Shown: positions 5,250 to 52,686 of the stretch, piece by piece
Layout: the number at the start of each line of letters is the position of its first letter
How positions within the stretch are numbered: position 1 is the first letter of the stretch
Source of the DNA: Mobula hypostoma
Taxonomy: Eukaryota
DNA length: 64,000 nt
Direction: 5' to 3'
NCBI RefSeq assembly: GCF_963921235.1
Contig: NC_086097.1
Location: 20,338,001 to 20,402,000, forward strand
The notes under the pieces: model-generated
Seen by the model: the letters and a program-made list of their open reading frames with translations, nothing else
The model's database searches: none
Told to the model about the DNA's origin: nothing
Position numbers and translations under genes: made by a program

Positions 5250-5965
5250 AGTTCAAAGTACATGTGTTACTGTATACAACCCTGAGATTGGTTATCTCAC
5301 AAGTATACTCAATAAATCCAATCACCAAATAGAATCAATGAAAGACTGTTGCAAATATTAAAAAAACTAAATAATGTTAATAAGTAATGAATATCACAGA
5401 CATGAGGTAAAGTGTCCTTAAGTGAGTCCATTGGTTTTAGGAACAGTTTGGTGATGGGGTAAATGAAGATGCCCCCTCTGGTTCAAGATTTTGATAGTCG
5501 AGAGGAAATAATGCTTCCTGAACCTGGCAGTGTGAGTCCTGAGGCTCCTGTACCTTCCTCCCAGCAGCGAGAATAGAGCATGATCTGTGTGGTGGGAGTC
5601 TCTGATGATGGATGCTGCTTTCCTGTGACAATACTCCATGTCGATGTGCACAGTAGTGGGGAGGGCTTTACCTGTGACGCTCCAGGCCATATCCTGACGA
5701 AGGGTCTCGGCCCGAAACGTCGACTGTACCTCTTCCTAGAGATGCTGCCTGGCCTGCTGCGTTCACCAGCAACTTTTATGTGCGTTGCTTGAAATTCCAG
5801 CATCTGCAGATTTCCTTGTGTTTGCGTTTTTAAATCCACTACTTTCAAGGGCATTGGTGTTTCCATACCAGGTTGTGATGCAGCCAGTAAATATACTCTC
5901 ACTACACTTGATAGAAGTTTGTCAAAGTTTTAAATATGCTGACTGTTCGCAAACTCCTCAGAGTA
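5250..5965 (-). mobile_element. Rex1/Babar-like LINE 3' fragment, interrupted by a hammerhead-bearing repeat
   Basis: Minus ORF 5418..5690: CHRKAASIIRDSHH..HALFSLL.GRYRSLRTHTARFR..YF. Confidence 0.75.
5692..5828 (+). mobile_element. Penelope-type short repeat with minimal hammerhead core (copy A)
   Basis: CTGACGA(5694-5700)-A-GGGTCTCGGCCC-GAAACGTC-GACTG, followed by the family body GATGCTGCCTGGCCTGCTGCGTTCACCAGC. Confidence 0.75.
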
Positions 5966-10329: not shown

Positions 10330-10905
10330 ATGTTACAATTGAACCCGCATCTGGGCATTTCATATTTCCTGGCATGCAAGAGAATGAGGAGAGATCGTGC
10401 TGAGGTATACAAAATTGTGAGCGGTGTAGATAGGGTAAATGCAAGCAGGTGAGATGGGTGACACCAGAACTGGAGATCATAGGTTTGGGGTGAAAGATGA
10501 AATATTTAAGGGGAGCCTGAGGGTGAACTTCTTCCCTCAGGGTGGTGTGAGTGTTGGATGTGAGTTCGATTACAACATTTAAGAAAAGTTTGGGCAAGTA
10601 CATGGATGGGAGGGGTATGGAAGGATGCACAAACAAGAAGATCTGCAGATGCTGGAAATCCAAGCAACACACACAACACACTGGAGAAGTTCAGCAGGCC
10701 AGGCAGCATCCATGGAGCAGAGTAAACAATCGGTGTTTCAGGTCGAGACCCTTCATCAGGACTGGGGGAAAAAAGAATTAGAAGTTAAAGAGAAGTATGG
10801 AGGACTATAGTCCAGGTGCAGGTCGATGGGACCAAGCAGAATAACAGATTGGCATGGTCTAGATGGGCCAAAGGGCCTTTTTTGTGCTCTCGTGCTCTAT
10901 GACTA
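10330..10905 (+). mobile_element. CR1-like 3' fragment interrupted by a minus-strand Penelope-type repeat (10627-10790)
   Basis: GAGGTATACAAAATT.TGAG.GGT.TAGATAGGGT CR1 3' motif. The insert carries a reverse-complement hammerhead core at 10727-10764. Confidence 0.65.
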
Positions 10906-11703: not shown

Positions 11704-12749
11704 CAGAGTGAATCAAATTGGCTAATGGCTGGCTTCCAATGGTAGTGAGGAGCTTAGGAGGAAGCTGAAATGGATCACTTGTACGGCACTTTTTGCTGAG
11801 AATGGTTGCTAATGTCTCCAGCATTCATGTGTGGGGGCGCTGCCATCACCGAGGAAGGTCTAGGAGCCGCCTTCCCCGGTTTCCTGTTTGATTGTCATCC
11901 ACTTGTCACAGCTCTAGAGCCTTTGTCTGATCTGTCGATTTAAGATGCTCAGTTCTGACTTTCCTGGTCTTTCATGATTAGCAGCACCTAATGTTCTTTC
12001 CTTTTGTACCCCTCTGAACCACTGTTGATTGTGGTAGAGTAAGTGACGATACACTGGGCTGTGAGGTCAGTGTGTGGTGCTGGATATATCTGCTGATGGT
12101 CCACAGTTTTGTTCCCCATACCTGTCTGAGTCTATCCCGTTTTTGCATGATTGTAGTGCCGTCATGGAGAACGTCCTTGTTGCGAAGGTAGGACTGCTCC
12201 AGGTAGATAGTGCAGTGGTCACATCCACCAATGCTGTTGTGGGCAGGTGTACCTGCCTGGGGTTACCTTGGCACGAATGAGGTCAGGTAGGTTGGTTCAT
12301 TCATTGTCTGCTGCAGACATGATCTAACAGTGCAACACAGGATTCTGCAGGTGCTGGAAATCCAGAACAACAGACACACTCAGCAGGTCGGGCAGCATCT
12401 AACAAGAAGCATAAACAGTTGACGTTTTGGGCTGAGACCCTCTATCTGTCCTCTCCACAGATGGTGACTGACCTCCTTCAGCATTATGTGTGTTCATTTA
12501 ACAGTGATGTCCTTCAACAGTCTGTCACTGTTGGTGTTCCCAAGCCACTCTTGATGACAGACATTGAAGTCTCATTATGTGTAGTAGGGTGGTATAATAT
12601 AGTGTGTGCTCACTGGTTTCAGTGCACTTGTTGTACATGATGAAATGCTGATGCCTCATCTGGGGATGGATGGTATTGGATGTGAGATAATCAATCAGTT
12701 TTAATATCACTGGCATTGGTCATGAGATTTGTTTTGCAGCAGCGGCAAT

Positions 12750-22318: not shown

Positions 22319-24619
22319 TACCTCATCCACCAGGCTCTGGCACCAAAGCGAATAACTTCACTCTCCCCGTCACTGAAATTTTCCCACAACCTATGGCTTC
22401 TCTTTCAAGGACTCTTCATCTTATGTTCGCAATATTTATTATTATTAATTACTTTTTGTATTTGTATAGTTTGTATCTTTTACACACTGAGCACATAGGT
22501 TGGTGCAGTCCTTCATTGATTCTGTATGATTATTGTTCTGTTAGGGATTTATTGAGTATGGCCAAAAGATAATGGATCTCAGGATTGTATATAGTGACAG
22601 CTGAAGTTGTTTCTTGTCAAGTTTTCAAGGTCAGAGTCAGCATCTGTAATAGTCCATGCTTTCAGGTTCAGGTGCCCGTGGCTGGGCTTTTGCCGCAATC
22701 CTGTCTGAAAAATGTTGCATTTTGCTTTCAGGAGTTAGAGGGAAAGATCATTGATTTGTGCGGAATTACTGCAAGAAAGATGTCACTATTGAGATGGACA
22801 GTCACAGTGATACACAGCAAGACAAAGCTTAGTAGGATGAATTATCAAAAACACGAGAATCTGCAAATGCTGGAAATCCAGACGCAAAATGCTGGAGGAA
22901 CTCAGCAGGTCAGGCAGCATCTATGGAGTAGAATACACAGTTGATGTTTTGGGTCAAGACCTTTCATAAATAATCAAGGCTGCTTTCCAAATTATGCATT
23001 GCATTTTGAATCACTCCAAGGATTAGTTCAAGTTTTGTCACAATTCTTCAGTTTAAAAAAAAAAGGCATTTTATAATTTTATTATATTGCAAAATTAGTG
23101 AGCAATGGTCTTGGATATTGTTCAGGTAGGGCACTGAATCAAGCCTCTGTCTGCCCTTTTGGGATCTGCTGACTAACTGCAGAGTGAGGAAGTTCTCCCC
23201 AGTGACCTGTCAGTGATCCTCTCCATCAGCATGGCTGAAACTTGATCAGAGTGAGGATCATGTTCTTCTTTATGGGGCCTTGTTTGCTGTTCCATTTCAA
23301 GCACTAAAACATTCAACCACTTAAAAACTGTGTCCGAAGTACCTGAAAGGAATCAAGTGAATGTCAATTAAGATAAGGTTTGAATTTGGGTGAAGAGAGG
23401 GACACCAACAGGCAGAAGTGAGGCATTAGGAGAGTTGACGATGCAGAGGTATAAGAACTGGAGGTCTGATGGAGAATTATTTGAGGGAGAAATGGTGTTC
23501 TGGAAAGGAGAATGAAATGAAGTTAAGGGGAAAGCGGGTACCTGGGAACACTGGAGTAGCACAATGTGGCTCCTTGTACCTGCTTTGCCATTTAATGTCT
23601 GACCTTGATATCATTATCCTATGCGGACCCCATAACTCAAGAATCCTTTAATATCTCGAAATTTATTGATTTCTGTTCAATATAGTCATCAAATGAAGTT
23701 ATGTAGTTTTACTTTCCCCTGCTGAAGACATTTTTTGACTAGTATTAGGTTGACTTTGTATCTTAGTAGTGAGCCTTATACTTTAGAGCGCCAGTTCAAT
23801 TCCCGCTGCTGTCTGTAAGGAGTGTGTATGTTTTCCTTGTGGCTGCATGGGTTTCCTCCGGGTGCTCCGGTTTCCTCCCACTAAGAACTTTCACAATTGA
23901 GAGCCTCCTGACTGGCTGCATCACTGTCTGGTATGGGAACTGTAACTCCCTTAATCACAGGACTCTGCAGAGAGTGGTGCAGACAGCCCAGTGCATCTGT
24001 AGTTGTGAACTTCCCATGATTCAGGACATTTACAGAGACAGGTGTGGAAAAAGGGCCCGAAGGATCACTGGGGACCCGAGTCACCCCAACCACAATCTAT
24101 TCCGGCTGCTACCATCCAGGAAATGGTACCGCAACATAAAAGCCAGGACCAACAGGCTCCGGGCAGCTTCTTCCACCAGGCCGTCAGACTGATTAACTCA
24201 CGCTGATTTGAGTGTATTTCTGTGTTACATTGACTGTTCTATTTATTATAAATTACTATGATTGCACATTACACATTTAGATGGAGACATAACATAATGA
24301 TTTTTACTCATGTATGTGAAGGATGTAAGAAAGTCACTTCCTTCATTCATTCACATCCCAAAGATGTACGAGCCAGAGGGTTAAATGGCAGGGGTTTGTT
24401 AGTCTGGAAGGGCCTGTGCTTGTGCTGTCCCTCTAAATAAAAAATGGTCCCAAATGACCGAATCATGTATTGACTCAGGACTCTCTTTTCCAGAGATCCC
24501 AGGTAGAGTAATACCATTCCTGTATCAACTCTGTCAGCCTCAAAAATTTTTGGCCATTACAATGAAATTGCCTCTTATTTTTAAAGTTTAAAAGTTCAGT
24601 TTTATTTGTCGCAATGAAA

Positions 24620-25610
24620 CGGAAGAATGGGCAAAAGAGTGGCAGATGGGATACAGTGTCGGGAAATGTATGATAATGCATTTTGGTAAAAGGAACAATA
24701 TTGCAAACTATTATCTAAATGGGGAGAAGGTTCAAACATCAGAGGTGCAGGGGCACTTGGGAGTCCTCGTGCAAGACTCCCAGAAGGTTAATTTGCAGTT
24801 TGAGTCTGTGGTAAAGAAGGCAAATGCAATGTTGGCATTTATTTCAAGGGGAATAGAATATAAAAGCAAGGAGATAATGCTGAGCAACACACATCAAAGT
24901 TTCTGGTGAACGCAGCAGGCCAGGCAGCATCTCTAGGAAGCTGCCTATAAATGCTGCCTGGCCTGCTGCGTTCACCAGCAACTTTGATGTGTGTTGCTTG
25001 AATTTCCAGTATCTGCAGAATTACTTGCGTTTGAGATGATGCTGAGGCTTCATAAGATGCTAGTCAGGTCACAACTGGAGTGTTGCCTATATCTCAGAAA
25101 GAGTGTGTTCTTATTGGACAGAGTCCAGAGGTAGTTGACAAGGATTGTTCCAGGAATGAGGGGGTGAACATCAGCTTTGGGCCTGTACTCGCTGGAATTT
25201 AGAAGAATGCGGGGGGGGGGGGGGAGGGAATCTCATTGAAACCTACTGAATATTGAAAAATCTAGATAGGGTGGAGGTGGAGAGGATGCTTCCTCAAGTG
25301 GGGGTATCCAGAACTAGAGGGCACAGCCTCAAAACTGAGGGGTGACTTTTCAGAGCAGAGGTAAGGAGGAATTTATTTTTAGCTCGAGAGTAGTAAATCT
25401 GTGGAATGCTCTGCTACAGACTGTGATGGAGGCCAAGTCCATCGGTATATTTAAGGTGGAAGTTGCTTGTTTCCTGATCGGTCAGGCATCAAAGGATATG
25501 GCGAGAAGACAGGTGTATGGGGTTGAGTGGGATCTGGGATCTGCCATGATGGAATGGTGGAGCAGACTCGATGGGCTGAATGGCCTAATTCTGCTCCTGT
25601 CTTATGGTTG
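24620..25610 (+). mobile_element. CR1-like LINE 3' portion with a hairpin insertion
   Basis: ORF 24646..24909 KCMIMHFG...VVKKANAMLAFISRGIEYKS; 3' tail GGGCTGAATGGCCTAATTCTGCTCCTGTCTTATGG. Confidence 0.85.
24885..25032. mobile_element. Penelope-type repeat inserted as an inverted pair
   Basis: 48-bp inverted arms 24883-24930 / 24951-24998 (1 mismatch); TSD GAGAT(A/G)ATGCTGAG at 24871-24884 and 25033-25046. Confidence 0.8.
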
Positions 25611-25660
25611 CATCAAACCAAATCAGTGAGGATAATCTCTTACTAACTCTTCCTTCAGTT

Positions 25661-25696
25661 AGTCCTGACGAAGGGTCTCGGCCTGAAACGTCGACT
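25661..25696 (+). ncRNA. Putative minimal type I hammerhead ribozyme (copy B) inside Penelope-type repeat 25637-25795
   Basis: Stem I AGUC/GACU, core CUGACGA, extra A, stem II GGGU-CUCG-GCCU, then GAAACGUC with predicted cleavage after C25692. Repeat flanked by TSD CAGTGAGGAT (25624-25633 / 25796-25805). Confidence 0.72.
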
Positions 25697-27166
25697 GTAC
25701 CTCCTCCTAGAGATGCTGCCTGGCCTGCTGCGTTCACCAGCAACTTTTATGTGTGTTGCTTGAATTTCCAGCATCTGCAGAATTCCTGTTGTTTGCAGTG
25801 AGGATTATGCATGTGTTGCCATGCTTCTGGTGCTAACATAGCTCACGAAGCCTAACTTTGGAATATGAGAGGAAACCGGAACACCCAGAGGAATTTCCTC
25901 AAATCAATGGGGAGAAACTGCAAGCTCCTTACAGAAATTGAAACAGAAAGCAGGAATTGAACTCTGCTTTATTTTTGTAAATTTAATTTAATTGCTTGAT
26001 AATTTTTTTGCTGGCTATGTTACTGTGCCCCCATTCCCCCCCCCCAACATTAACAGCCCCATGTTAGGCAGATGCTCCATTACACCAATTGTTCTGATAA
26101 ATCTTTGCAGTCACCACTATCACACAGATGGGTAGGAAGACTGGTTTGTTTGAATAATGAGGAAGGGAGGGAGAGTGCGAGGTTAGATTGGTGGAGTTTG
26201 TTGTCTTTGGAAGGGTGGGGTGTGGTAGACGTGGGAGGTGGCAGTGGGGGGTACACCAGAGGTAGGGTGTAGATAGTGGCAAGCCTTTCCCCATAACAGG
26301 TGTGTAAGACTCGGGCTTAGTTTAGGGCAGTTTTATCGGACGATGACCCTGACGTCAATAGTGGGTGAATTATTGGAAGGTATTCTCAGGGAGAGGATAT
26401 ATAATTTGGGTAAGTAGTTGGAATATGGAACACTTTTTTTAGGGGTGCTGGGGGCAGAAGCTCTTGCAACATTTAAGTAATGTTGAGATGAACACTCGAA
26501 TCAACATAGCAGCAAAGGCTAAAGACCAAGTTTGATAGATTGGTCACTGTGGACTTTGTGGGCTGAAAGGCCCGGTATCGTACTCTGACAGTATTCCATA
26601 TACCATCTCCTGAGGGTGTTGTATAATTTCAGGAAGACACTTGCAATGCTCTACCCCGAAGAAGGGTCTCGGCCCGAAACCTTGACCATCTATTCATTTC
26701 CACAGATGCTGCCTAACCTGGTGTGTGTGTGTGTGTTGCTCCAATGTACTATTTACGTGTAAGGCCACTGGGATCTCTTCTGAGCCTCTTGGATTCCCAG
26801 CATCTGCAGTTCTTGCTTAGAGAGATCAAAACTTAAAATATAAAATGGACAAATGCTTGAACTCCAAGTTCGGCAGCATCTGAGGAGAGAGGAGTGGAAC
26901 TAATTCTGGGTTGGTGACTTCTTATTGAAAGAAGGCAAAGATAAAATATGTTTTGTAGAAGGGAAGGGGACTTGGGAATAAAGGCAATGTCTGTGACAAG
27001 GAGGAATTGGAGAGGAATAGTCCACTAAAAGAATAGTCCTTTTTATTTTCCTGTCATTTATTGCTGATGAAGATGAGGGACTGCTGGGAAACATTGAAAG
27101 GTCCAAATGAGAATGCCATGATAACTCACGAAATTGCTTGGAGTGAGAGGTATTAAGAATTGTAAG

Positions 27167-27844: not shown

Positions 27845-28440
27845 GGTTGAAAGAGTACAGAGAAAATTTTGAAGCATTTTAACAGGACTTGAGGACATGA
27901 GATAAGTTGAATAGGTTAGGATGACTTTCTCTGGAGCATAGGAGAATAAGGGTGTTTTGATAACAGGTATACAAAATTATGAGGGGTATAGATAGGATAA
28001 ATTCCACTGAGATCGGGCGAGGCGAAAGCAAGAAGTCATGGGTTAAGGATGAACGGTGGAATACTCAAGAGGAACCTGAAGGGGAACTTCACTCAGAGGG
28101 TGGTGTGAATGTGCAACGAGATGCCAGTGGAAGTACTGGATTTGGCTGCCAGTCCTGCTGAAGGGTTTGGGCCTGAAACATTGGCTGTACTCTTTTCCAT
28201 AGAGGCTGCCTGGCCTGCTGAGTTCCTCCAGCATTTTGTGTGTGTTTCTCAAATTTCCAGCATCTGCAGATTTTCTCTTGTTTGTACTAGATACGGAGAA
28301 GTTTGGATAGGTACGTGAATGGGAAAGGTATGGAGGGCTATGGTGCAGGTGTGGATCAGTGAGACGAGGCAATATAACATTTCAGGATAGACGAGATGGG
28401 CTGAGGGCCCGTTTCTGTGTTATGGTGGTCTTTGACTCTT
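27845..28440 (+). mobile_element. CR1-like 3' fragment containing a Penelope-type repeat (28149-28285)
   Basis: CR1 3' motifs on both sides; the insert starts CAGTCCTGCTGAAGGGTTTGGGCCTGAAACATTGGCTG (decayed hammerhead). Confidence 0.65.
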
Positions 28441-29392: not shown

Positions 29393-31689
29393 TACAGAAG
29401 TGATTTGCCATTGCCTTCTCCTGGGCAGTGCTGTTACAAGACGGGTGACCCCTGCCATTATCAATTCTCTTCGGAGATTGTCTGGCTGGTGTCAGTGGTC
29501 ACGTAACCAGTTCTTGTGATGGGCACCAGCTGCTCAGGCGACCATCCACCACCTGCTCCCATGGCTTCATGTGACCCTGATCGGGCTGCTAAGCAGGTGC
29601 TAGGGTGACCTGCAGGCTAGTGGAGGGGAGGAGCACCTTGTATCTCCTTGGGTAGAGACGTGCTCCCGCCCCGCTGCCCATCGAGCTAACCAGTGAACTG
29701 CAGTTAAAAGGCATTATGTAATTTTGTTGTGGATCAGTTTATAAACCAAAAATGTGAAATAAAAACTTGCAGTCACCAAAATGTCTGGAGCAGAGAAAAC
29801 ATTGGGTTATTGTTGTTCCTTTCTGTGGCTTTCTGGTGCATCAGGCAGCAAGCTTGCCGTTTCTTTAGCATTTTGTCTTGTTTTTTTTGAGGCCGAGTTG
29901 TTCACTCAATGCTCAACCCGGCACGGATGGAAAGCATGCAAGGAGCTGGCCAGATACAAACCTGGGATCACCTGCTTTGCAGTTTGGTGCATATGTCTCT
30001 ACACTGCCAGCCTGCTTCAATGGAAGGAGTTGACTATATATGCGATCTGCTATAAATGGGATGCTGAAATTGCAGTTGGATTTTATAATGTAATTCACTG
30101 GGTGGTGAGAATAATCAGAGTACTGGTTACCTGGCTGTGGTAACCTGTATCTAGAGAGGCCTCATGACCTCTTGCATGCATCTAGTAGATTATTGAATGA
30201 TAGAAATGAGATATGCCTTGTGTTCTATGGGAGACTTTGTCAGTGTATGCAAGATTATCAGTTGAATTCTTTTTCTGTTATCCAAAAGTGCACGTTGAAA
30301 TAAGGAACTGAATTCTATCAGCAGCTGAGACAAATGGGGAGGTTTTTAATTGAGCTTAACTAGATTTTCTACTGTGAATTAATAATTAATCCATATAAAT
30401 GATTGATTGGAAGTGCATACAACACAAAGTTATCAACCATGAAGGGGGTTTATGGGTATTTATGAAAGGACAGCTGTGATAAATTAAAACTGATCCAGTT
30501 AATTGTTCAGTTGTGTACTGTCATATGAAGAGACTAAATCATTATAAACACATAAAGCTAATTGTACCACCATTCATGCTGTTTGTTGTTATTACTGTCC
30601 ATCCTGGTGATCACTATTAACCAGGAACTCACTGTGCCCGACAAGAAGAGGAGTGTAGTGGTGATGGGGAATTCAATGGTCAGAGGAGCAGACAGGAGTT
30701 TCTGTGGACATGAAAGGGAATCACACTTCTTTTGATTAAGAAGTGTCAAAGGTTGTGGGGAGACTGGGGTTGAGATGGATGCTCAATCAGCCACGATGGA
30801 ATGGCGGAGCAGACTCGATGGGCTGAATGGCCTACTTCTGCTCCTATGTCTGCATGTAATTGGATGAATGTCCAGCAGGAAACCGCCTCCTGTCATCTGG
30901 AAGGCAACTCCAATAATGCCCAAAAGAGTTTAACAAAGGAACTCCAGCACCTGGGACATCATTTACACTAAATTTACTTTCCTGAACTACTGCTGCATGT
31001 TACTGCAACGTCATCTGCAAACATTTACTGCAGACTGCTCCACACCCCCAACTACCATCACCAAGAAGTCACCACCCCTTCATGCTCTCCTGGGAGTCTT
31101 GCGCCATCATGATAAGGAAATATACCCTTTATTGCTGGAACTGTGTCCTGGAGTTCAGTCCCCGAAACCGTGCACGTGCAGGTGTTATCTGGCTTTTTGA
31201 AACTCTGGCGGAAGTTGGGCTGACCTTGGTTCTTCAGACAGTATGGGTTGAATAGTTTCCTGTTTGTCTTGTTTGCTGTCCACCAGCAGGAAGCTTGTTT
31301 GGAGGCGAGTTGGAATATTGAAGTGAGAAGGATTGACAAAAGTGAGAGGGTGCAACTTTGTTTTACATTTGTCTGCTTTGAGACTGGATTTACTGTGGTG
31401 CAGTCCTCTTCTATTGGATTCCTCCTTCCAATGATCCCCTCTCAAATCTTAACTCATCCCACTCCTCCCCAACCCACTAACCTTTCCCCTCAACTGGCCT
31501 CACTAAGCATTTGCCAGCCTGTGCTCCCACCCTCCCACATTATTCGGGCTTTTGCCCTTTCCTTTCCAGTCCCGATGAAGGTTATTGGCCTGAAACCCCT
31601 CTTCCATAGATGCTGCTTGATTTGCTGACTTCCATCAGCATTTTGCTTAAGGTTTCCAGCATCTAAAGAATTTCCTTTGTGCCCGTGGT

Positions 31690-32877: not shown

Positions 32878-35800
32878 ACTTTCCAATATTTTTATTAGTT
32901 TTACATAGAAGAATACAGAGTACAAGAAAGTTATCTATAAAAGGTCAAAAAAGATTTTTAAGAAACCTACCAATTATATCTATTCATAATAATCTCATTA
33001 TTCCGTATTCATGTAACTTAATAGTTATATTGAAATCTACTAATTTATTACAAAAAAATGTCTAACCCCTACCAAGACCGAAGCTGTTTATTAAGGAGAA
33101 AAAAAGGTAAAATACCTTCTTGTATAATAAAAATTAATAATAGCCAACATCTGAATTTAAACAGCAAATTGAAGGTTTTGAAAGTTTTGAAAATAATTTA
33201 GAAAAGGTCCTCAGAACGTTTGAAAGTCTTGACGAGATTCAGAAATTGAACAACTAATCTTCTCTAAATCTAAGCATGACATAACGTCGCATAACCATTG
33301 GGCATGAGGAGGAGAACAAAAACGCCCTCCTAGCTATAAGAGAGCTAAAGGCTAAAATATGTAAATCAGGTGTCTTCAGCTTGATATCTTGTTCTGCAAC
33401 AATACCGAATAGGGCTGTCAGAGGGTTAGGCTTAAAATTGACTTTGAAAAGTAAAGAAAAAGTTTCAAAAACTTCCTTCCAATATTTTTCAAGACTCGGT
33501 CAAGTCCAAAACATATGAATTAATGAAGCTTGTCCATTATTACATCTGTCACAGTAAGGAGCTATATCCGAATAAAAACAAGAAAGCGTATCTTTAGTCA
33601 TATGGACTCTACATACCACCTTAAATTATATGAGGGAATGGCGAGCACATAGCGATGAAGTATTAACCAGTTTAAAAATTTCATTCCAAGTTTCCTCAGA
33701 TACTGATGTCTGTAAATCTTGTTCCCAGAGATTCTTAACTTTGTCTAAAGGAACATTCCTCGTCTCCAGTAACATACCATAAATATTAGATATCGAACCA
33801 TTATGAAAAGGTGTCATATTAAAAATTACATCTAGTAAGTTCTTATAACCGTATAACCATAACAGCACAGAAACAGGCCATCTTGGCCCTTCTAGTCCGT
33901 GCCGAACTCTTACTCTCACCTAGTCCCACCGACCTGCACTCAGCCCATAAGCCTCCATTCCTTTCCTGTCCATATAGCTGTCCAGTTTAACTTTAAACGA
34001 CAACATCGAACCTGCCTCAACCACTTCTGCTGGAAGCTCGTTCCACACAGCTACCACTCTGAGTAAAGAAGTTCTCCTTGAGCTTGATGATTTTTAGCAA
34101 GAGTTGAAATATCTGAGCTTATAGGAAATGTGCGTAATAGAGATCTTAGAAAATCTCTGATTTGTAGATATCTAAAAAAGTGAGTTTGGGCTAAGCTGTA
34201 TTTAGCTGACAATTGCTCAAATGAAAAAAGATTTCCTCTTAACAAACAGATCCCAAAAACATTTAATACCCAACCTGTCCTATTCTTTAAAAACTAAATC
34301 AGTCATGGAGAGTTTAAAAAAAATTAGAGTAAGTGGGACTTAAAAGGGAAAAATCTCAATAAACCAAAATGTTTTCTAAATTGTATCCAGATCCTCAGAG
34401 TATGTTTAACTATTAAATTATGAGTTGGTTTACTTACAAATAAAGGGAGGATCCAAGAAGAGAAATAATAGAAAATTTATTAACAGAGTTAGCTTCTAAA
34501 GAAACCTATACCAGACAGTCTACACGATTAATATAATATAACCAAAATGTAAGATATCGTATATTAACTGCCCAGGAATAAAACCTAAAATTAGGTAAGG
34601 CTAAACCTCCAGACTTTTTAGATTTTTGAAGATGAACTTTATTTAAGCGACCTTTATTTTTCCATATATAGGAGGATAAAATAGATTCAAGAGAGTCAAA
34701 AAAGGATTTAGGAATAGAAACAGGTAAAGCCTGAAAAAGAGAGATAAATTTAGGTAGAATATTCATTTTAATAGAATTAATTCATCTAATCAACGATATT
34801 GAAAGAGGTGACCAATTTAATGATAACCTTTTTACATGGTTCAATAAGAAAGTTTTCTTTAAACAGGTGTTTGTAATTCTGAGTGACTGTTACACCCAAA
34901 TAAGTAAATTGATTCCTTACAATTTTAAAAGAGAGATTAGTATTAATTAATACCAAATTATTTAAAGGAAATAATTCACTCTTATGTAGGTTCAATTTAT
35001 ATCCTGAAAACTGGCTAAAATGGGAGAGTGAAGAATGTACGCAAGGTAGCGAGGTTTCAACATTAGAGATAAAAAGCAATATATCATCAGCATAAAGTGA
35101 GATTTTGTGGGTGGTACCTCTCCTTAAAATACCACAGATATCATTAGATTCTTGACAAGCAATGGCAAGGGGTTCTAAAGCTAGATCAAAAAGCAAAGGA
35201 CTCAACGGACTGCCTTGTCTAGTTCCGTGGTGAAGTTTAAATGGTTTGGAATTTTGAAAATTAGTAAGAACTCGAGCAGAAGGAGATCAATAAAGTAATT
35301 TAATCCATTAAATACAATCTGGTCCAAAATTAAAATTTTCTAAGGTTTTAAATAAATAATTCCATTCAACCCGATCGAAGGCCTTCTCGGCATCTAAGGA
35401 TATCACACATTCCAATATCTCCTGAGAAGGAGAGTAAATAACATTTAGTACACGGTGTATATTAAAATGGGAATGTTGGTTTTTAATAAATCCAGTCTGA
35501 TCATCAGAAATAATAGAAGATCAACTATCTTCAATCCTACGAGCCAGAACTTTAGAAAGAATTTTGGTATCAACATTGAGTAATGAAATTGGCCTATATG
35601 AAGAGCATTCATTTGGGTCCTTGTTCTTTTTTAGGATAAGCGAAATAGAAGCTTCACAAAAAGATTGAAGCAAACTACCCAATTTGAAAGGATCCAAAAA
35701 GACTAGGTATAACTGTGGTATAATTAATGAAGAAAAAACCTTATAAAATTCTTCAGAAAATCCATCTGGACCTGGAGCCTTCCCCAAGTGTAATGAACAT

Positions 35801-38796
35801 ATAGCCTCGGCGATTTCCTCATAAGAAGTGGGTTGATCCATCTGATTGCAGTTACCTGCAGCAAGTGCACAGATATTTAATTGATCTAGAAAATTATTCA
35901 TTACAGTATTATCTTTAGGGGAATCAGAACTATAAAGTTTAGAATAGAATTTCCTAAAGGTACCATTTATTTCAGAGTAATCAGATGTCCTATCACCAGT
36001 AGTTTTGCAAATTTCTTTAATTTGTCATTTAATTATGGAAGTTTTTAATTGGTTGGCCAATACTTTGCCTGATTTATCTCCGTTAATGTAAAATTGAGCT
36101 TTATCTTTAAGAAGTTGAGTTTCAATTGGATATGTTAACAGAAGATCATACTTATTTTTTAACTTCAACATGTCTTTTATATAAAACAGGATCTGGAGCT
36201 ATAGCATATTTTTGATCCAGTTGTTTCAATTGATTAGCTAATTCAATTATTTCTTTATTAGCTTTATTCTTAACACTGGCACTATAAGAAATAATTTGTC
36301 CTCTCATATAGGCCTTGAAAGTATCCCATACAATAAGGTTAGAAGTCTCTTCCTTTTTATTCTCTTCAAAAAACAAGATAATATGCTTCTCTAGAAATTT
36401 TAAAAATTTCTTTTCAGATAACAAAGTTGTAGTAAAACACCAAAATCTGTTGGTTTGAGGAAGACCAGGGAGATTTAAAGATAGAAATACAGGAGCATGA
36501 TCTGAAACAGCAATCTCTTTATATTCACAGGAATGAACTGATGAAATCATTTGACTATCAATAAAAAAAAATCAATCCTGGAATATGTATGATGAACATG
36601 GGAAAAAAATGAGCACTCCCTATCTAAAGGATTTAAAAAAAAATGCCAAATATCAACAATACCACACTTCAATAAGAAAGATTGAATAAACAAAGCTGAT
36701 TTATTAAGAGACGCTGGTTTAGAAGATGATCAGTCTAAAATTGGGTCTAGCCAACAATTAAAATCTCCTCCCATCACCAAAGAATAAAGATTCAGATCTG
36801 GTAAAAAAAACACAAAAAAAAAACGCTCAAAGAATCCTGGATCATCTACATTTGGGGCATACACATTGGCAAATACTATTAATTTATTATCTAGTTTTCC
36901 TGAAACTATAACAAAACGTCCATTAGTATCAGACGCTACTTTATGTTGGACAAAAAAAAAGTGTATTATCTATATGAATCAGAACTCCTCTAGATTTGAC
37001 CTGAAAAGAAGAATGAAAACAAAGTCCGTTCCAATGGCTAGAAAAACGTGGATTATCACATTTGTGTATGTGAGTTCTTGTAAGAAAATAATAGGGACCT
37101 TAAATTTCCTAATATAAGCAAAAATCATTACGTTTAACAGGGTGATTTAACCCTTTCACATTAAAAATAAGTAAATTAATGGTCCATTTTTAATATTTAA
37201 AGGAAGGGTTAAAATGTAAGTTAAAACCAAGCCATAATTCTTGAGAAATGGTAACCAAGCAAAAAGTTGGCTAAAAATTTGAAAACAGCTTCTGAGGGGA
37301 AAAAAAAATCATACCCCTGCCCACCTCCCAAAGAAAGAAGACTGACCAATAGAAAGTCAGCATCTACAAACTACGGATAACCCCCAAAAAAACTGGTTAT
37401 CGCTCCAATTAGTTTCAAGGTTATTTATATTCCAACCTAGACTAAACAGTATCCAAACAAGAAATTCAATTCTCGTGTATCAAAAATACAGTATTAAAAA
37501 ATACGAAAGGAAATTAGTTACAAAAGTTTACCAAAAGTAAACCATACAATTATTCATACAGAAAGACATTAAACATTGATCTTATATCTTCATGAAAAAA
37601 CAGACTAAGCAGTTAGCTTTCAAATTTAAAAAATCTTTGTGCATCAGCATTTAAATGAAACCATTTGAAGGATCCATCTTTAATGAGATTCTCAGTCAAA
37701 CTGAGTAGCCAAGGGACAAGTTAAAACCGTTGTTAAAAAAATTCCAACAAAGCTTGTTTAAACTTAGCATGTTCCTGCATAACCTGAAGCGAATATTCTT
37801 CGAGAATCTTAATATTCCACCCTGGAACCAATCATACCTCTTGGACAGGATTTGCGAATTAAAAGTTTCTCATTTAATCTTGTGTCTTCATGTAAGGACA
37901 AACTAAACAGCTAGCCTTTGGATTTAGCCCCCGGATTTTAAAAAACAGTTGAACGGAACCATTCGAAAGATCCATCTTTAAGTGTGATTCTGAGTCGGGC
38001 TGGGAGGCGAAGGGGAGGCTTGAAACCCTTATTAAAAAGGTCGGACATAACTTCTTTGAACTTAACATGTTCCTGCATAACCTCAGGCGAGTAATCTTCG
38101 ACAATTCTAACCTTACGACCGTGATAGTCAATCATGCCTCTTCGACGAGATTCGCGAATTAAGAGTTCCTTTGTTTTAGATTCCTGAAAACAGGTTATTA
38201 CTGATCTTGGTCTCTGACCCTTAGGAGGTCTAAACGCAGGAGATCTGTGAACTCAATCAATCATAGGCACAGACGTTAAAATCTCCGGAAATAATTCTTG
38301 CAAAAAGTTTGCAAAAGATTCCATAGGATGAGACCCAGAACCCGTAGGTTGTTTCTTCTACTTCTATTTTTCTAGGATGATAATCTTCTGTCTTAATTTT
38401 TTGTTGGACTTTGATTGCTTTTCACAAAGCTTTTGCAAATCATCTACTTCCATTTCCAGAGATGCCAAAATCGCTTCGTTTTTTTTCTAATACGTTTATC
38501 GTGTTCATTAAGAGTTTGTTGAAAAGAATCCAATTTACCATCTATTTGTTTAAATTCAGAGCTGAATTGTTGGAACTTCTCAGAGGCTTCTTGTGTATGA
38601 CTTTGCAGCAGATCCATGATAGAATCCAAAGAAGCAGGGAGATCATCCTTTTTAGTACCTCTGGCCCTCCTTGTATCCATAATGAAAGAATGTCACACTT
38701 AAAAAAGAAGTTTCAAGACAGGTTGGAAATAGTAAGATAACTGGAGTTGGAGCAACGGCAGATTTGTTACTCCATCAGCCACCACCAGGAAATCTC
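32878..38796 (-). mobile_element. Near-full-length decayed L1-clade element (ORF1 + EN/RT ORF2)
   Basis: ORF1-like RIVEDYSPEV...LRLPARLRIT; ORF2 KAPGPDGFSEEFYK, YRPISLLNVDTKILSKVLARR, SLYADDILL, GGLALPNFR. 14-bp TSD AGTTTATTGCTTTT (32864-32877 / 38797-38810). Confidence 0.92.
33846..34082 (-). mobile_element. CR1-like 3' end nested in L1
   Basis: GC-richer block with tail (TAACCA/G)n and AACAGGCCATCTTGGCCCTTCTAGTCC interrupting the AT-rich L1 ORF2. Confidence 0.75.
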
Positions 38797-42097: not shown

Positions 42098-45000
42098 TCT
42101 TTCTTTTCCAATATTTTTATGAATATTATATAAATTACATGAATACAAATACAAAATTCATAAGGTACAAGTAAATAATACGAATTACATTACACTTAAA
42201 TCACAGTAATATGATCATAGTATCCCATATTCCAAATCAATCATATAGAAAAAAAGATTAAATTAGGAAATAAAATAAAATAATTGTATTTATTTAGAAA
42301 AAAATCTACCCCCACTACCAAAATGAGCTGGTTGGTAAAAAAAAAAAGAAAAATACCTTACCATATGATATTATAATAATGGCTCAGTGTGGGCACGTGG
42401 CCAAGTGGTTAAGGTATTTGACTAGCAACCTGAAGGTTGTGAGTTCGAGCCCCAGCCGAGGCAGCGTGTTATGTCCTTGAGCAAGGCACTTAACCACACA
42501 GTGCTCTGCGATGACACTGGTGCTAAGCTGTAATGGCCCTTGCCCTTCCCTTGGACAACATCGGTGTCCTGGAGAGGGGAGACTTGCAGCATGGGCAACT
42601 GCCAATCTTCCATACAACCTTGCCCAGGCCTGTGCCCTGGAGAGTGAAGACTTTCCGGGCGCAGATCCATGGTCTTGCAAGACCATGACGGATGCCTTAA
42701 TGGCTCAGATCCATACTTTAATAACAGTTCAAAGATTGTGAAAATAATTCAGAAAGGGTTCCCAAAGCGTTAGAAAATCATGTTTGGAATCAGAAATCAA
42801 ACAACGAATCTTCTCTAAATCAAGGCACAACATAACATCAGATAGCCATTGAACATGAGTGGGCGGGGCGGCCTCCTTCCACTTGAGCAAGATCACCCTC
42901 CTGGCCATAAGCGACATAAAGGCCAATACCCGCAACTTAGGTGGCTTCAATTTTGTAGTGCTATCCTCAACAATACCAAACAAGGCAGTCAAAGGATTGG
43001 GCTTAAAGCCGATATTGAAAAGTGCAGAAAAAGTTTGTAATACATCTTTCCAGAATTTTTCAAGGCTTGGACATGTCCAAACATATGAATTAGTGTGGCC
43101 ATTCCATTAGTACATCTATCACAGTAAGGGGAAATATCTGTGTAGAAACGAGAGAGCTTGTCTTTAGACATATGAACACTTATGTACCACTTTGAATTGT
43201 AATAAAGAATGACGAGCATATAATGAAGAATTATTCAATTTTAAAATAATCTTCCATCTCTCTTCAGATATGAAAATCTGTAAATCCTTTTCCCAATCTC
43301 TTTTAATTTTATCTAAAGAGGCCTTTTTCAGTCCCAACAGTAGGTCGTAAATGTAAGATATTGAACCGTTATCAAAGGGTTTCAGATTAAAAATTGTATC
43401 TATAATATTCTTATCTGGAGTTGTAGAAAATGTAAGTAATTGAGATCTTAAAAAATCTCTAATCTGTAAGTATCGAAAAAAAGCGAGTGTTGGAAAGGTT
43501 AAGTTTCGTTGAAAGTTGCACAAAAGAAGAGATTCCCTCCATCAAACAAATCCTGGAATCGTTTAATACCCAATCTATCCCATTCTTTAAAAGATGAGTC
43601 AATTAAAGATGGTTTAAAAAAACTATTAGAAAATATGGGATTTGAGAGGGAGAATCTCAGTAAACCAAAATGTTTTCTAAACTGTAACCAAATCCTCAAA
43701 GTATGTTTAACCACCACATTGTCAATTAGTTTATTTAAAGATAAAGGAAGCGATGATCCAAGTAAATAAATAATGGAAAATTTTATAACTGAGTTGACTT
43801 CCAAAGAAACCCATGTGGGGCAATTCTCATGGTTAATGTAATATACCCAGAATGTAATATTTCGAATATAAACTGCCCAATAATATAACCTAAAATTGGG
43901 TAGGGCAAATCCTCTGTTCTGTTTGGTTTTTTGAAGGTGAGCTTTATTTTTACAAGGTTTTTTATTCTTCCATATATAGGAAGAAAGAGTTGAATCCAAA
44001 GAGTCAAAAAAAGATTTAGGAATAAAAACAGCAACAGCTTGAAAAAGCTATATAAATTTAGGTAAGATATTCATTTTAATAGAATTGATTTGGCCAATCA
44101 GTGATAAAGAGAGAGGCAACCAATTAGAAAGTGTTTTTTTAACATAATTCAATAAACTTAAAAAAATTTCCTTAAATAAATCTTTATAATTCTTAGTAAT
44201 TGTTAGTCCTACAGATGTAAATTGTTTTCTTAAAATTTTAAAAGGAAGGTTAATGTCAGTTGGTATTAAATTGTTTAAAGGAAACAGTTCACTCTTCTGT
44301 AAATTTAATTTATGTCCTGAGAACTGACTAAAATTAGTCAGTAAACGGAACACAAATGGTAAAGAGGTTGTAACATTAGATATAAAAAGCAATAAATCAT
44401 CAGCATAGAGCGACACTTTATGAATAGTACCTCTCCTTAAAATACCAATGATCTCTTTGGACTCTCAAAAAGCAATTGCTAAGGGTTCTAATACCAAATC
44501 AAAAAGCAGAGGGCTCAAAGGGAAACCTTGTCTAGTTCCACGTTGGAATTTAAAGGGTTTAGAATTCTGAAAATTAGTAAGAACCTGAGCGGAGGGAGAT
44601 AAATAAAGTAATTTAATCCAATGAATAAAATTAGGTCCAAAATTAAATTTTTCTAAGGATGTAAATAGATAGTTTCATTCGACTCTGTCAAAAGTCTTCT
44701 CTGCATCAAAAGATATCACACATTCCGATATTTCCTTAGATGGAGAGTACATAACATATACAAACGCTGTATATTAGAATAGGAATATCAATTTTTAATA
44801 AATCCTGTCTGATCGTCAGAAACTATAGAAGATATAATATTTTCAAGTCTGCGGGCCAACACTTTAGATAAAATTTTAGTATCAAAATTGAGTAAAGAGA
44901 TGAGTCTATATGAAGAACATTCAGTAGGATTTTTATTCTTTTTGAGAATGAGCAAAATGGAAGCTTCGTAAAAAGACTGCGGTAATCTTCCTACCTTAAA

Positions 45001-47858
45001 GGAATCTGTGAGGGTAGAACATAAGTGTGGTATAAGCAAGGAGGAAAAAGCCTTATAAAACTCTCCAGAGAATCCATCGGGTCCTGGGAGTTTCCCAGAA
45101 TGCAGTTCTTGAATAGCCTGAGCAATTTCCTCCTGGGAAATGGGTTGACCCAATTGTCTACGATCATCTAACAAAAGATTAGGAATATTTAATTGATCTA
45201 AAAAATTATTCATTGCAATATCATCATTAGCAGAGTCAAAATTTAGAATAAAATTCCCTAAAAGTGTCATTAATTTCAAGGTGGTCAGTTGTTGTGTCCC
45301 CATTAATTTTACGTATTTCTTTAATTTGCTGCTTGGCTATAAATGGCTTCAATAGTTTACCCGTTTTATCTCCGTGAATATAAAATTGAATTCTATCTTT
45401 TAAAAGTTGGCTTTCAATTGGATACGTTAAAAGAAGATCATATTTAGTTTTAGCTTCAATACGTCTCTTACATGTTTCAGGATCGGGTACCGAACCCTAT
45501 TTATGGTCTAGTTGTTTTAACTGATTGGCTAGTTCATTTCTCTCTTTGTTAGCTTTTTTAGTAATGTTTGCAGTATAAGAAATAATTTGACCCTGGATGT
45601 ATGCTTTAAAAGTATCCCATATAATAAGACTAGACGTCTCTTCCAACGTATTTTCTTCAAAAAAATGAGTAATTTGATTATCCATAAATGTTAAAAAGTC
45701 CTCATCGGATAACAGAGTTAAATTAAATCACCAAAATCTACTCATAGGGATAGGACCAGGAAGATTTAAAGATAGAAGTGCAGGAGAGTGGTCAGAAATA
45801 GCAATCTCTCTATATTCGATCGATTGAACTAATGGAATCATTTGACTGTCAATAAAAAAAATCAATCCTGGTATAAGAATGATGAACATGAGGAAAAAAA
45901 AATACTCCCTACCCGTTGGATGGAGAAAATGCCAAACATCAACTATAACACATTTAGTTAGAAAGGATTGGACAAACAAAGCTGATTTATTAAGTGTGGC
46001 TGGTTTGACAGATGAGCGATCTAATACTGGATCTAACCAGCAGTTAAAATCTCCTCCCATCACAAGAGATTAAGTACACAAATCTGGCAAAAATGAAAAT
46101 AGACGTTCAAAATATCCTGGATCATCTACATTGGGGGCATATACATTAGCAAAAACAATCAATTTACTGTCTAAACTCCCTGATACAATAACAAATCGAC
46201 CATTAGGGTGGAAACAACTTTATGCTGAACAAAGGAAACTGTATTATCTACAAAAATTGAAATTCCACGTGATTTTTGCATTAAACAAAGAATGAAATTG
46301 CATATGCTTCTACCGAGTAAAAAAAACGTAAGCTATCACAGCTGCGTATGTGCATCTCTTGTAAGAAAATAATGGGTGCTTTTAATTTTTTAATATAAGC
46401 AAACACTTTGTTCCTTTTGATGGGGTGATTCAGCCCTTTCACATTCAAATATTTTGAACCATTTTAAATACCAATCAACATGTAATTAAAAGATCTGGCC
46501 ATAAGTTATTAAAACTAGAAAGCAAACTGTAAGGTAAGGTATTCAAACAAGCAATCATATATTCAACCCAACACAGCTCCCAGAGAAAAATAGGCCCGCC
46601 CCCCCTCCCCCTCCCCCACCCAAAGCGAGAAAGCTAATCAATAGGCAGTCAGTGAGCTAAGAACTAAGTTCCCTCCCCAAAATATCCTGTTGACAAAAAA
46701 GTCTGGTCCTACAAAGTTATTATGTCCCTACCAAGACAGAACATAAAAAGAAAAATAACTCTGTATTCAAAACTATGAAAGGATCAGTTTAAACAAATTC
46801 AAAGAAAGCTGTGTTAAAATAAAGCCTTGAAAAGGGACATAGTAAAAAAAAGTATCAGCAAAAAATATAACAAAGGACGATATATGAACAGCTAAAATGT
46901 AGGTTTAATGAAACCTTATTTCAAATTCAGATTAACAGAAGAAAAAATTGATCAAATAAGAAATAACAGTTTTAGACTTCATCCTTCAGAAACTCTTTTG
47001 CATCTTCAACTGACTTTATTCTTTTTCACAATCCGTTCTTCAAAACAATACTCAGACGACCGGGGAACCGAAGGGATGGTTTATATCCTTTATTGTAAAA
47101 TTCCAACATAACTTCTTTATACTTCATGCGATCAGCCATAACTTCAGGCGAATAGTCTTCCACAAATCTAACCTTGTAATTTCGGAGATCGATCATTCCT
47201 TGTCGACGGGTATGGCGAACTAAAAGGTCCTTAATATGAAATTCATGAAAGCTTAGTATGACCGACCTGGGTTTTGCCGCCGCCGTCAACGGCTTCGATG
47301 TCGGTGAGTGATATGCTCAATGGAGCTTCGGCTCGGAAGTGAATAAAGCAGGGACTAGCTGTTTCAGAAAGTTTGCAAAAAACTTCGTACGGTCAGCGCC
47401 TTCAACTGATTCTTCAAGGCCCAGAATTTGCAAGTTATTTCTCCTGTTTCTATTTTCGATGATCCTTTTCATCATTTTATCATTGGATAATGATAACTCT
47501 TTGCAGAGTTTAATTGTATCTTCAAGTGTCGCCAGCTTTGCAGTATTTTCCTGAAATCGGTTCTCATGCTCGGATAAAGTTTATTGAATTTTATCCAATT
47601 TGCCGTTAAGTCGTTGAAACTCCTCAGAAAATTCCGATTTTTGCCATTTAAGGAAGTCACTGATTGAATCCAAAGTGACTGGGGATTCGTCTTCTGTTTC
47701 TCTTTCTTTAGTAGAAGCTTTTGTTCTTTTCCCAACCATAGTAAAGCAGTATTAAAGTCTTATAGTAAAGTTTCAAAAAAAATGTCTGGTAGGAGACAAT
47801 TAAGTAAACAGGGTAGGAGCCATCTGAAACGTGTTACTCTATCAGCTGCCAACAGGGC
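42098..47858 (-). mobile_element. Second near-full-length decayed L1-clade element (different subfamily)
   Basis: ORF1 VRFVEDYSPEVMADR..YKPSLRFPGRL; EN GGDFNCWLDPVLDRSS and ISDHSP; RT GPDGFSGEFYK, DQTGFI, SLYADDLLL. TSD not clearly resolvable. Confidence 0.9.
42388..42697 (+). mobile_element. tRNA-derived SINE nested in L1
   Basis: A box TGGCCAAGTGG, B box GTTCGAGCC, perfect 11-bp TSD TAATGGCTCAG (42377-42387 / 42698-42708). Confidence 0.88.
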
Positions 47859-52557: not shown

Positions 52558-52686
52558 TTACGCAAACAAGTCTTACTAACTCTTCCTTCAGTTAGTCCTG
52601 ACGAAGGGTCTCGGCCTGAAATGTCGACTGTACCTCTTCCTAGAGATGCTGCCTGGCCTGCTGCGTTCACCAGTAACTTTGTGTGT
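52558..52686 (+). mobile_element. Penelope-type repeat with hammerhead motif (copy C, core 52594-52629)
   Basis: AGTC-CTGACGA-A-GGGTCTCGGCCT-GAAATGTC-GACT; perfect 12-bp TSD AGCCTGTGGTTA (52546-52557 / 52687-52698). Confidence 0.75.

What the first reader, a model, noticed from the sequence alone, without database searches (positions are those of the whole stretch)
25661..25696. Intact minimal type I hammerhead ribozyme motif in a dispersed short retro-repeat
Seen: AGUC | CUGACGA | A | GGGU-CUCG-GCCU | GAAACGUC | GACU. Every conserved hammerhead core position (CUGAnGA, GAAA, UH) is present, helix I closes exactly (AGUC/GACU), and helix III is reduced to a palindromic ACGU. Known: Penelope-like retroelement terminal repeats and retrozymes carry such minimal hammerheads, thought to cleave as dimers through the palindromic helix III; an extra A after A9 occurs in some natural hammerheads. 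Inferred: this non-coding ~160-bp repeat with a 10-13 bp TSD is a mobilised ribozyme-bearing unit, with cleavage after C25692.
Basis: partly seen in the sequence, partly recalled or inferred. Interest (0 to 1): 0.75.

Follow-up and report, generated by a model that had tools for sequence, protein, structure and literature searches.

The report
Penelope tail carrying a minimal hammerhead
The motif is a real minimal hammerhead fold at the end of a short, truncated copy of a very abundant Penelope-like jumping gene, a known arrangement; this lone copy is likely silent, and the family's copy ends suggest the jumping enzyme copies uncut RNA that likely often begins right at the ribozyme's first base.

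Summary
The motif is present as described. A minimal-hammerhead descriptor finds 2 hits in the window and 0 in 100 shuffles; Rfam has no hammerhead hit. It is not a stand-alone unit. The 162-bp insertion (25634-25795, 10-bp TSD) is the 5'-truncated 3' pseudo-LTR of a Neptune-type Penelope-like element. Full-length siblings carry two such hammerheads about 3.5 kb apart around a 1,043-aa RT + GIY-YIG frame. This arrangement is published (PMC4209133). In 1.6 Mb of evenly spaced genome samples, 306 fragments were found; individual copies decay neutrally and show little covariation, but subfamilies keep the core. No copy starts at the cut site (0 of 59 arms), whereas 12 of 59 start at the ribozyme's front edge. 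All 12 inverted insertions have one short and one long 3' end. The templates were therefore likely uncut RNA. Cleavage was not testable. This scan noted the same family and the front-edge clustering earlier on other DNA of this genome. Verdict: new member of a known kind, modest interest.

The parts
25624..25633 (+). Left target-site duplication (10 bp exact; 13 bp with one mismatch, to 25636)
25634..25795 (+). 5'-truncated insertion: 3' pseudo-LTR plus tail of a young Neptune-type Penelope-like element; starts 31 nt upstream of hammerhead C3
25641..25662 (+). Splice-acceptor-like tract: TACTAAC (25641-47, branch-point consensus recalled), pyrimidine run, AG at 25661-62 overlapping helix I; splicing not shown
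   Evidence: inconclusive
25659..25665 (+). Initiator-like YYANWYY (consensus recalled) with its A at 25661, the first base of helix I; this is where sibling copies often begin. Weak on its own: 6 such sites in the 302-nt spacer
25661..25664 (+). Helix I, 5' strand
25665..25672 (+). Core CUGACGA plus the extra A between positions 9 and 10.1
   Evidence: feature listed in PMC4209133
25673..25684 (+). Helix II, 4 bp with G.U wobbles at both ends, loop CUCG
25685..25692 (+). GAAA core, palindromic ACGU (25688-91) and C17; predicted cut after 25692
25693..25696 (+). Helix I, 3' strand
25709..25760 (+). Block kept across subfamilies as well as the hammerhead itself (likely the protein-binding / RT-start signal; inferred); the short 3'-end class ends near 25759-61
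25761..25796 (+). About 35-nt optional 'tail'; the long 3'-end class; overlaps the start of the parent's open frame
25796..25805 (+). Right target-site duplication
5692..5829 (+). Sibling young copy starting at the hammerhead's front edge (helix I 5' strand incomplete)
52572..52686 (+). Sibling young copy, short 3' end, hammerhead with ATGT in place of ACGT, TSD GCCTGTGGTTA seen by eye
24883..25035 (.). Head-to-head fold-back insertion of the same family, no hammerhead, one short and one long end

Best explanation
This is the minimal type I hammerhead motif of a Penelope-like retroelement's pseudo-LTR, left in a 162-bp 5'-truncated, likely dead insertion that was likely copied from uncut RNA. 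Shown: the same sequence flanks both ends of full-length elements that encode RT, a CX4CxxC linker and a GIY-YIG endonuclease; copies share two fixed 3' ends and vary at the 5' end; they carry 8-17-bp TSDs; and they run across the predicted cut site. Inferred mechanism: the element's protein nicks both target strands about 10-15 nt apart and starts reverse transcription inside the RNA at one of two sites (about +95 or +130 from C3). Here it used the +130 site, copied through the hammerhead and stopped at -31. In the parent element the hammerhead would cut only with help, either as a double hammerhead pairing through ACGU in tandem read-through transcripts or with the element's protein bound, trimming multimers or removing the 5' end. 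Cut RNA is likely rarely used as a template. As a solo copy, with its core predicted to be sequestered, this motif likely does not cleave.
For: 26 of 30 nearest siblings extend more than 200 nt upstream in shared sequence, up to RT and GIY-YIG. 9 of 30 ORF-start loci have a same-strand upstream pLTR. In those 9, two pLTRs flank the ORF (hammerheads 3,510-3,523 nt apart in the 8 where both matched), and 5 of 9 have unbroken 1,041-1,043-aa frames. Pfam GIY-YIG E 7e-6; RVT_1 E 4e-5, below the curated cut-off; DKG, YIDD and CKRNKCYTC motifs. TSD of at least 8 nt in 32 of 57 insertions, 18 of them 13-15 nt, against 2 of 300 mismatched flank pairs. 3' ends of 64 young arms are bimodal; 12 of 12 inverted insertions have one short and one long end. 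0 of 59 arms start at +23..+32. Across 5 subfamily majorities, identity is 0.77 in the hammerhead against 0.37 upstream and 0.31 in the linker; 9 of 11 core columns are invariant. Literature: monomers inactive and dimers weakly active (PMC4209133); protein-assisted cleavage, uncut RNA as the template and two internal RT starts in the Anolis element (PMC11167929).
Against: No cleavage or transcript-end data. No Rfam hammerhead match. Covariation is nearly absent: paired fractions equal the independence expectation at all 13 pairs, with one weak compensatory signal at the innermost helix I pair (Fisher p=0.015, uncorrected and confounded by CpG decay). The block at +44..+95 is conserved as well as the hammerhead (0.76 vs 0.77), so conservation need not mean catalysis. 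The double-hammerhead fold (-11.5 kcal/mol) is far from the two-strand optimum (-30.3) and less stable than two open monomers (-14). The young family has G.U at 10.1-11.1. The clade label rests on one motif, not on a tree.
Confidence: 0.88

Rival explanations
1. The motif has hammerhead shape but no longer works as a ribozyme in this family; it is kept because it overlaps a transcription start, a splice acceptor or a protein-binding site of the pseudo-LTR.
For: No copy boundary at the cut site; a core-sequestering fold is favoured by 4 kcal/mol and the dimer fold is unfavourable; wobble at 10.1-11.1; little covariation; initiator-like and acceptor-like motifs overlap helix I; Naiad PLEs spread without canonical hammerheads (PMC8557442, passages).
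Against: Across 5 subfamilies, changes fall on tolerant positions (N7, H17 C/U, loop II), while 9 of 11 core columns stay fixed and both exceptions occur in clusters of only 3-4 old copies. One old group has U-A in place of C-G in helix I. The related Anolis motif does cleave with protein, and a C3G/G8C double mutant partly rescues it.
Confidence: 0.2
2. An independent short non-autonomous unit (retrozyme or SINE-like) of about 160 bp that is mobilised in its own right, possibly through a circular RNA.
For: It has its own TSD; short copies are common, and 10 of 47 young insertions have an arm starting at the hammerhead's front edge; non-LTR retrozymes are proposed to derive from PLE pLTRs (bioRxiv 10.64898/2026.07.22.740005).
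Against: Copy lengths form a continuum from under 100 nt to beyond full unit length. This copy's 5' end (-31) is shared by no arm in the 1.6-Mb sample (0 of 59 at -50..-21). It is a single copy, not a tandem array, which the preprint requires for an active retrozyme. It is 94-95% identical to full-length elements.
Confidence: 0.04
3. A host-adopted ribozyme that cleaves a host transcript at this locus.
For: The core and both helices are intact in this copy.
Against: 31 of 66 young copies are equally intact, and the share falls to 4 of 127 in older ones, as neutral decay predicts. The nearest descriptor-passing same-strand partner in the window is 27 kb away. No host exon was recognised in the 22 of 25 long ORFs scanned.
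Confidence: 0.02

Closest known systems
Minimal hammerheads (min-HHR) in pLTRs of metazoan Penelope-like elements (Cervera and de la Pena 2014, PMC4209133; parts 1-2 of 4 read, one of two supplement files searched)
   Same: Type I, no real helix III, palindromic 15.2-16.2, extra base between 9 and 10.1, short helix I, two copies about 3 kb apart around the ORF, most copies solo and truncated, pairs on opposite strands.
   Different: Helix II is 4 bp (7-8 bp in the Schistosoma families); 10.1-11.1 is G.U in the young family; an extrapolated 8 x 10^4 intact motifs against about 4,000 and 9,000 reported for coelacanth and Xenopus. No shark or ray name was found in the searched supplement file.
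Neptune/Nematis-type endonuclease-bearing PLEs (Craig et al. 2021, PMC8557442; passages read)
   Same: [quoted passage not shown]
   Different: Clear 10-15-bp TSDs in non-microsatellite targets in the copies inspected; clade not placed on a tree.
Poseidon element PAc of Anolis (Frangieh et al. 2024, PMC11167929; parts 1-2 of 4 read)
   Same: Two internal RT start sites bounding the tail, overlapping the ORF start; uncut RNA as the template; no ends seen at the cut site.
   Different: PAc lacks the linker type (Penelope/Poseidon clade) and its ORF starts inside the hammerhead; here the frame opens about 85 nt after C3. In vitro, PAc showed no strand difference in start site, whereas here 12 of 12 inverted insertions pair one short with one long end.
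Drosophila virilis Penelope hammerhead (as described in PMC4209133)
   Same: There the intron's 3' end maps to the 5' end of helix I; here an acceptor-like tract ends at the same place, and older subfamilies have a donor-like G|GTAA at the ORF stop.
   Different: Splicing is not shown here, the young family lacks that GT, and no intronless copy was seen among the 77 ORF-end hits examined (those aligned near the stop were printed).
Non-LTR retrozymes (bioRxiv 10.64898/2026.07.22.740005; part 1, discussion and passages read; supplements closed)
   Same: Type I hammerhead, pLTR ancestry, non-coding appearance.
   Different: Retrozymes are tandem arrays of a defined unit; this is a solo truncated copy of an autonomous element.

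Membership tests
Minimal type I hammerhead (PLE min-HHR) | Core CUGANGA, GAAA, UH | tested here: met
Minimal type I hammerhead (PLE min-HHR) | Helices I and II can form; palindromic 15.1-16.1 segment | tested here: met
   (helix I 4-5 bp, helix II 4 bp, ACGU)
Minimal type I hammerhead (PLE min-HHR) | Extra nucleotide between 9 and 10.1 | tested here: met
   A25672; A in 97% of 193 copies
Minimal type I hammerhead (PLE min-HHR) | G10.1-C11.1 pair (typical, per PMC4209133) | tested here: inconclusive
   G.U in this copy and in most young copies; G-C 82 and G.U 73 of 185 copies; G-C in 3 of 5 subfamily majorities
Minimal type I hammerhead (PLE min-HHR) | Covariation in stems across families | tested here: inconclusive
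   Paired fraction equals independence; one weak C-G to U-A change, p=0.015 uncorrected
Minimal type I hammerhead (PLE min-HHR) | Self-cleavage after H17 (dimer or protein-assisted) | not testable with these tools
   No raw RNA reads; contigs cannot show ends
Canonical hammerhead (Rfam models) | Match to a curated hammerhead covariance model | tested here: not met
   No hammerhead family among 18 matches at E<=10
EN+ Penelope-like element | Single ORF with RT and C-terminal GIY-YIG | tested here: met
   (in siblings 94-95% identical over the pLTR)
EN+ Penelope-like element | pLTRs in partial tandem with the hammerhead in each | tested here: met
   9 of 30 ORF-start loci
EN+ Penelope-like element | Inverted 5'-truncated copy and one-sided 30-40-bp tail | tested here: met
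   23 of 57 blocks hold both strands; 12 of 12 two-armed insertions have one short and one long end
EN+ Penelope-like element | Short TSD | tested here: met
   32 of 57 vs 2 of 300 control pairs
Neptune/Nematis clade | CX2-5CxxC linker between RT and EN | tested here: met
   CKRNKCYTC at residue 910; feature from PMC8557442
Neptune/Nematis clade | RT phylogeny with named references | not tested
   No named clade references among the 120 listed homologues
Non-LTR retrozyme | Tandem array of at least two hammerhead-bearing units | tested here: not met
   Solo copy between TSDs
Non-LTR retrozyme / SINE-like unit | Defined unit length with a shared 5' end | tested here: not met
   Length continuum; the -31 start is not shared

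The most novel reading that the evidence does not exclude
In this Neptune-type family the hammerhead occupies the first 36 bases of the element's own transcript, which starts at the first base of helix I, so self-cleavage would act as an uncapping switch that takes an RNA out of the template pool rather than a step that prepares it. Each insertion is made by a protein dimer that primes the two target strands at two different RNA sites, one short and one long. The genome's roughly 10^5 young copies would then be a fossil map of the PLE transposition cycle, including its unknown transcription start.
Probability: 0.35. Interest if true: 0.6.

Novelty: new member of a known kind. Interest (0 to 1): 0.27.

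Why it matters
The locus itself is one of several hundred thousand remnants (306 fragments in 1.6 Mb) and is ordinary. The family is useful. The role of PLE hammerheads is described as unclear in PMC8557442, and only a Poseidon-type element has been reconstituted (PMC11167929). Here there are open-frame full-length copies and enough young insertions to read mechanism from breakpoints: none at the cut site, a ten-fold excess at the ribozyme's front edge, and strict short/long pairing of ends. These give direct predictions for 5' RACE and in vitro assays. My searches found no paper on hammerheads of shark or ray PLEs, but the library is limited and a 2026 preprint reports retrozymes in one chondrichthyan genome.

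Tried and rejected
Rfam scan: no hammerhead; the miRNA-family matches at 24883-24998 are all below gathering score and reflect a fold-back insertion of this family. Folding z-scores of the motif and of the downstream block were not significant (-0.37 to -0.85), so no structure is claimed for the downstream block. Distant relatives: 13 metagenome loci at 25-36% protein identity gave 0 descriptor hits; the contigs are short and the descriptor strict, so this was not used. Expression: no RNA holder listed; two layings of assembled contigs (7 distinct runs of 18 listed) cannot show starts or ends. Joints from near the stop codon to the hammerhead edge are flagged 'between: not known' and fit divergent spacers of older subfamilies, so splicing is neither shown nor excluded. 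Intronless genomic copies as the cause of the front-edge cluster: flanks of young copies starting at -25..+25 were unrelated host DNA, TSDs or inverted arms, and none continued in shared ORF-end sequence except possibly L220, a deletion-like copy. RT stalling at the fold: it would predict stops at the 3' side of helix I (+31), where there are none. Second pass through the hammerhead in full-length copies: 0 of 9 stop at the edge against 12 of 50, not significant (p=0.18). The initiator match is weak: 6 such sites in 302 nt, and partly forced by helix I. Host gene context: 22 of 25 ORFs of at least 130 aa were scanned, giving four RVT_1 hits and one ALKBH8_N hit and no other family. File 1 of the PMC4209133 supplement could not be searched and the preprint's supplements were closed; either may list shark or ray motifs.

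Full report
Observation. A descriptor needing the core, two helices of at least 4 bp and a self-complementary helix III finds 2 hits in the window and none in 100 shuffles. Rfam gives no hammerhead match at E<=10. The monomer is no more stable than shuffles, and its best fold buries the core. The 10.1-11.1 pair is G.U. Positions below count from C3 (25665) as 0; the predicted cut is after +27.

What the repeat is. The insertion spans 25634-25795, between two copies of a 10-bp duplication. A search of the own genome (3.48 Gb) returned 40 scored near-identical places. Of 30 fetched, all share the 3' end (as the query selects) and extend 153 to at least 1,648 nt upstream in shared sequence, 26 of them more than 200 nt, running into a GIY-YIG and RT frame. 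Searching with the ORF's start gave 30 loci, 9 of which have the same pLTR upstream on the same strand. In those 9, two pLTRs flank the ORF; the hammerheads lie 3,510-3,523 nt apart in the 8 where both matched, and 5 have unbroken frames of 1,041-1,043 aa. The protein has DKG, YIDD, a CKRNKCYTC linker and GIY-YIG (the Pfam scores on the full protein are below the curated cut-offs, while a GIY-YIG fragment passes). That linker marks Neptune/Nematis PLEs (PMC8557442, passages). The closest named homologue is a Chiloscyllium protein at 72%, so the host is likely a cartilaginous fish. The window copy is therefore a 5'-truncated 3' pLTR, not a separate unit.

Abundance. I fetched 160 stretches of 10 kb at round coordinates on 19 large contigs. 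They hold 306 pLTR fragments, 64 young arms and 2.8% young-family DNA. Extrapolated, that is about 6-7 x 10^5 fragments and about 8 x 10^4 intact motifs (35 of 193 copies that cover the motif; 15 descriptor hits in the first 600 kb). Small contigs were not sampled.

Conservation. In 66 young copies, non-CpG substitutions are 2.5% in the core, 3.9% in stems and 1.9% downstream; 31 of 66 young and 4 of 127 older copies are intact; stem pairing equals the independence expectation. There is no sign of selection on copies. Comparison of lineages is different: among 5 of 14 clusters kept (at least 3 copies and a coherent upstream flank; 9 dropped), mean identity is 0.77 in the hammerhead, 0.37 upstream, 0.31 in the following linker and 0.76 in the block +44..+95; 9 of 11 core columns are invariant, and changes fall on N7, H17 and loop II. 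One weak compensatory change exists (p=0.015, uncorrected). The motif is thus maintained in active lineages, but catalysis is not the only possible reason.

What copy ends say. 3' ends of young arms cluster near +94-97 and +122-129 (the reference was cut at +129, and one search shows up to +132). All 12 two-armed inverted insertions have one short and one long end. This is the published one-sided 30-40-bp tail (PMC8557442, PMC3846280; passages), which in the Anolis element corresponds to two internal RT start sites (PMC11167929). Exact duplications of at least 8 nt flank 32 of 57 insertions, mostly 13-15 nt, against 2 of 300 control pairs. Of 59 arms not cut by a stretch edge (5 of 64 dropped), none starts at +23..+32, although shorter copies were detected, while 12 start at -5..+2, about ten times the neighbouring rate. 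These come from 10 of 47 insertions (corrected p about 3e-5). Earlier notes of this scan had reported this cluster. A hint was visible; the notes led me to enlarge the sample, and it held. The window copy itself starts at -31, outside the cluster.

Mechanism. Shown: cDNA crossed the cut site in this copy and in most others. Inferred: target-primed reverse transcription from uncut RNA, started at +130, with a staggered nick of 10-13 nt. This agrees with the Anolis result that uncut RNA is the dominant template and that cleavage needs the protein, and with inactive monomers and weak dimers in PMC4209133. The front-edge cluster fits an RNA 5' end at about -4 better than stalling, which should stop the enzyme at the 3' side of the fold. 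An initiator-like motif has its A at -4 in 11 of 14 clusters, but such motifs are common in this spacer. A splice-acceptor-like tract ends at the same place, and older subfamilies have a donor-like site at the stop codon, echoing the D. virilis arrangement; the young family lacks that donor, and contig data did not show splicing. Against efficient dimer cleavage: the double-hammerhead fold scores -11.5 kcal/mol against -30.3 for the best two-strand fold.

Comparison and verdict. It works like, and meets the sequence criteria of, a PLE minimal hammerhead. It fails the retrozyme criteria (no tandem array, no fixed unit). Searches for hammerhead + Penelope + shark or elasmobranch found one review and no paper respectively, so this family may be undescribed, but the kind is well known and this scan has met it many times in this genome. 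Interest 0.27; the breakpoint pattern, if it marks the transcript start, would deserve about 0.6.

Noticed in passing
window 24883-25035: Head-to-head fold-back insertion of the same family (near-perfect ~55-bp arms), one short and one long end, with a 14-bp duplication with one mismatch; it sits inside a decayed LINE-like fragment (CR1-like label recalled) and scores below threshold on several miRNA models.
   Followed up: partly
L075, L076, L080, L093, L127, L129, L181, L217 and others (12 two-armed insertions in 1.6 Mb): Every inverted insertion pairs one short with one long 3' end (12 of 12), suggesting strand-specific RT start sites in vivo.
   Followed up: yes
ORF stop to hammerhead spacer, e.g. 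L083, L077, L228 vs L067: Older subfamilies have a donor-like G|GTAA overlapping the stop codon and a 210-310-nt pyrimidine-rich spacer ending in CAG at helix I; the young family has lost that GT but has a branch-point-like TACTAAC/TACTCAC.
   Followed up: partly
window 25665-25692: The young family's C at N7 lets GACG pair with CGUC and bury the core; most older subfamilies have U there. The young family also has G.U at 10.1-11.1. Both changes would weaken the ribozyme in the most successful family.
   Followed up: partly
L061-L069, about +85 from the 5' hammerhead: The open frame begins inside the pLTR; some full-length copies have ATG there and others GTG, with a shared ATG 28 codons into the frame.
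   Followed up: no
window 5692-5845: Copy starting at -2 whose 3' end runs about 15 nt past the usual tail into ORF-like sequence.
   Followed up: no
window 33300-38100 and 42900-47200 (minus strand): Two decayed AT-rich LINE copies about 9.3 kb apart, 72-77% alike, with RVT_1 hits.
   Followed up: no
window 55570-55610 and 28149-28285, 10629-10765, 22845-22967, 12336-12446, 26654-26749, 49597-49691, 31566-31680: Older, mutated hammerhead-pLTR copies; 16 profile hits in the window in all, plus a divergent CUGAUGA...GAAA candidate at 55570.
   Followed up: partly
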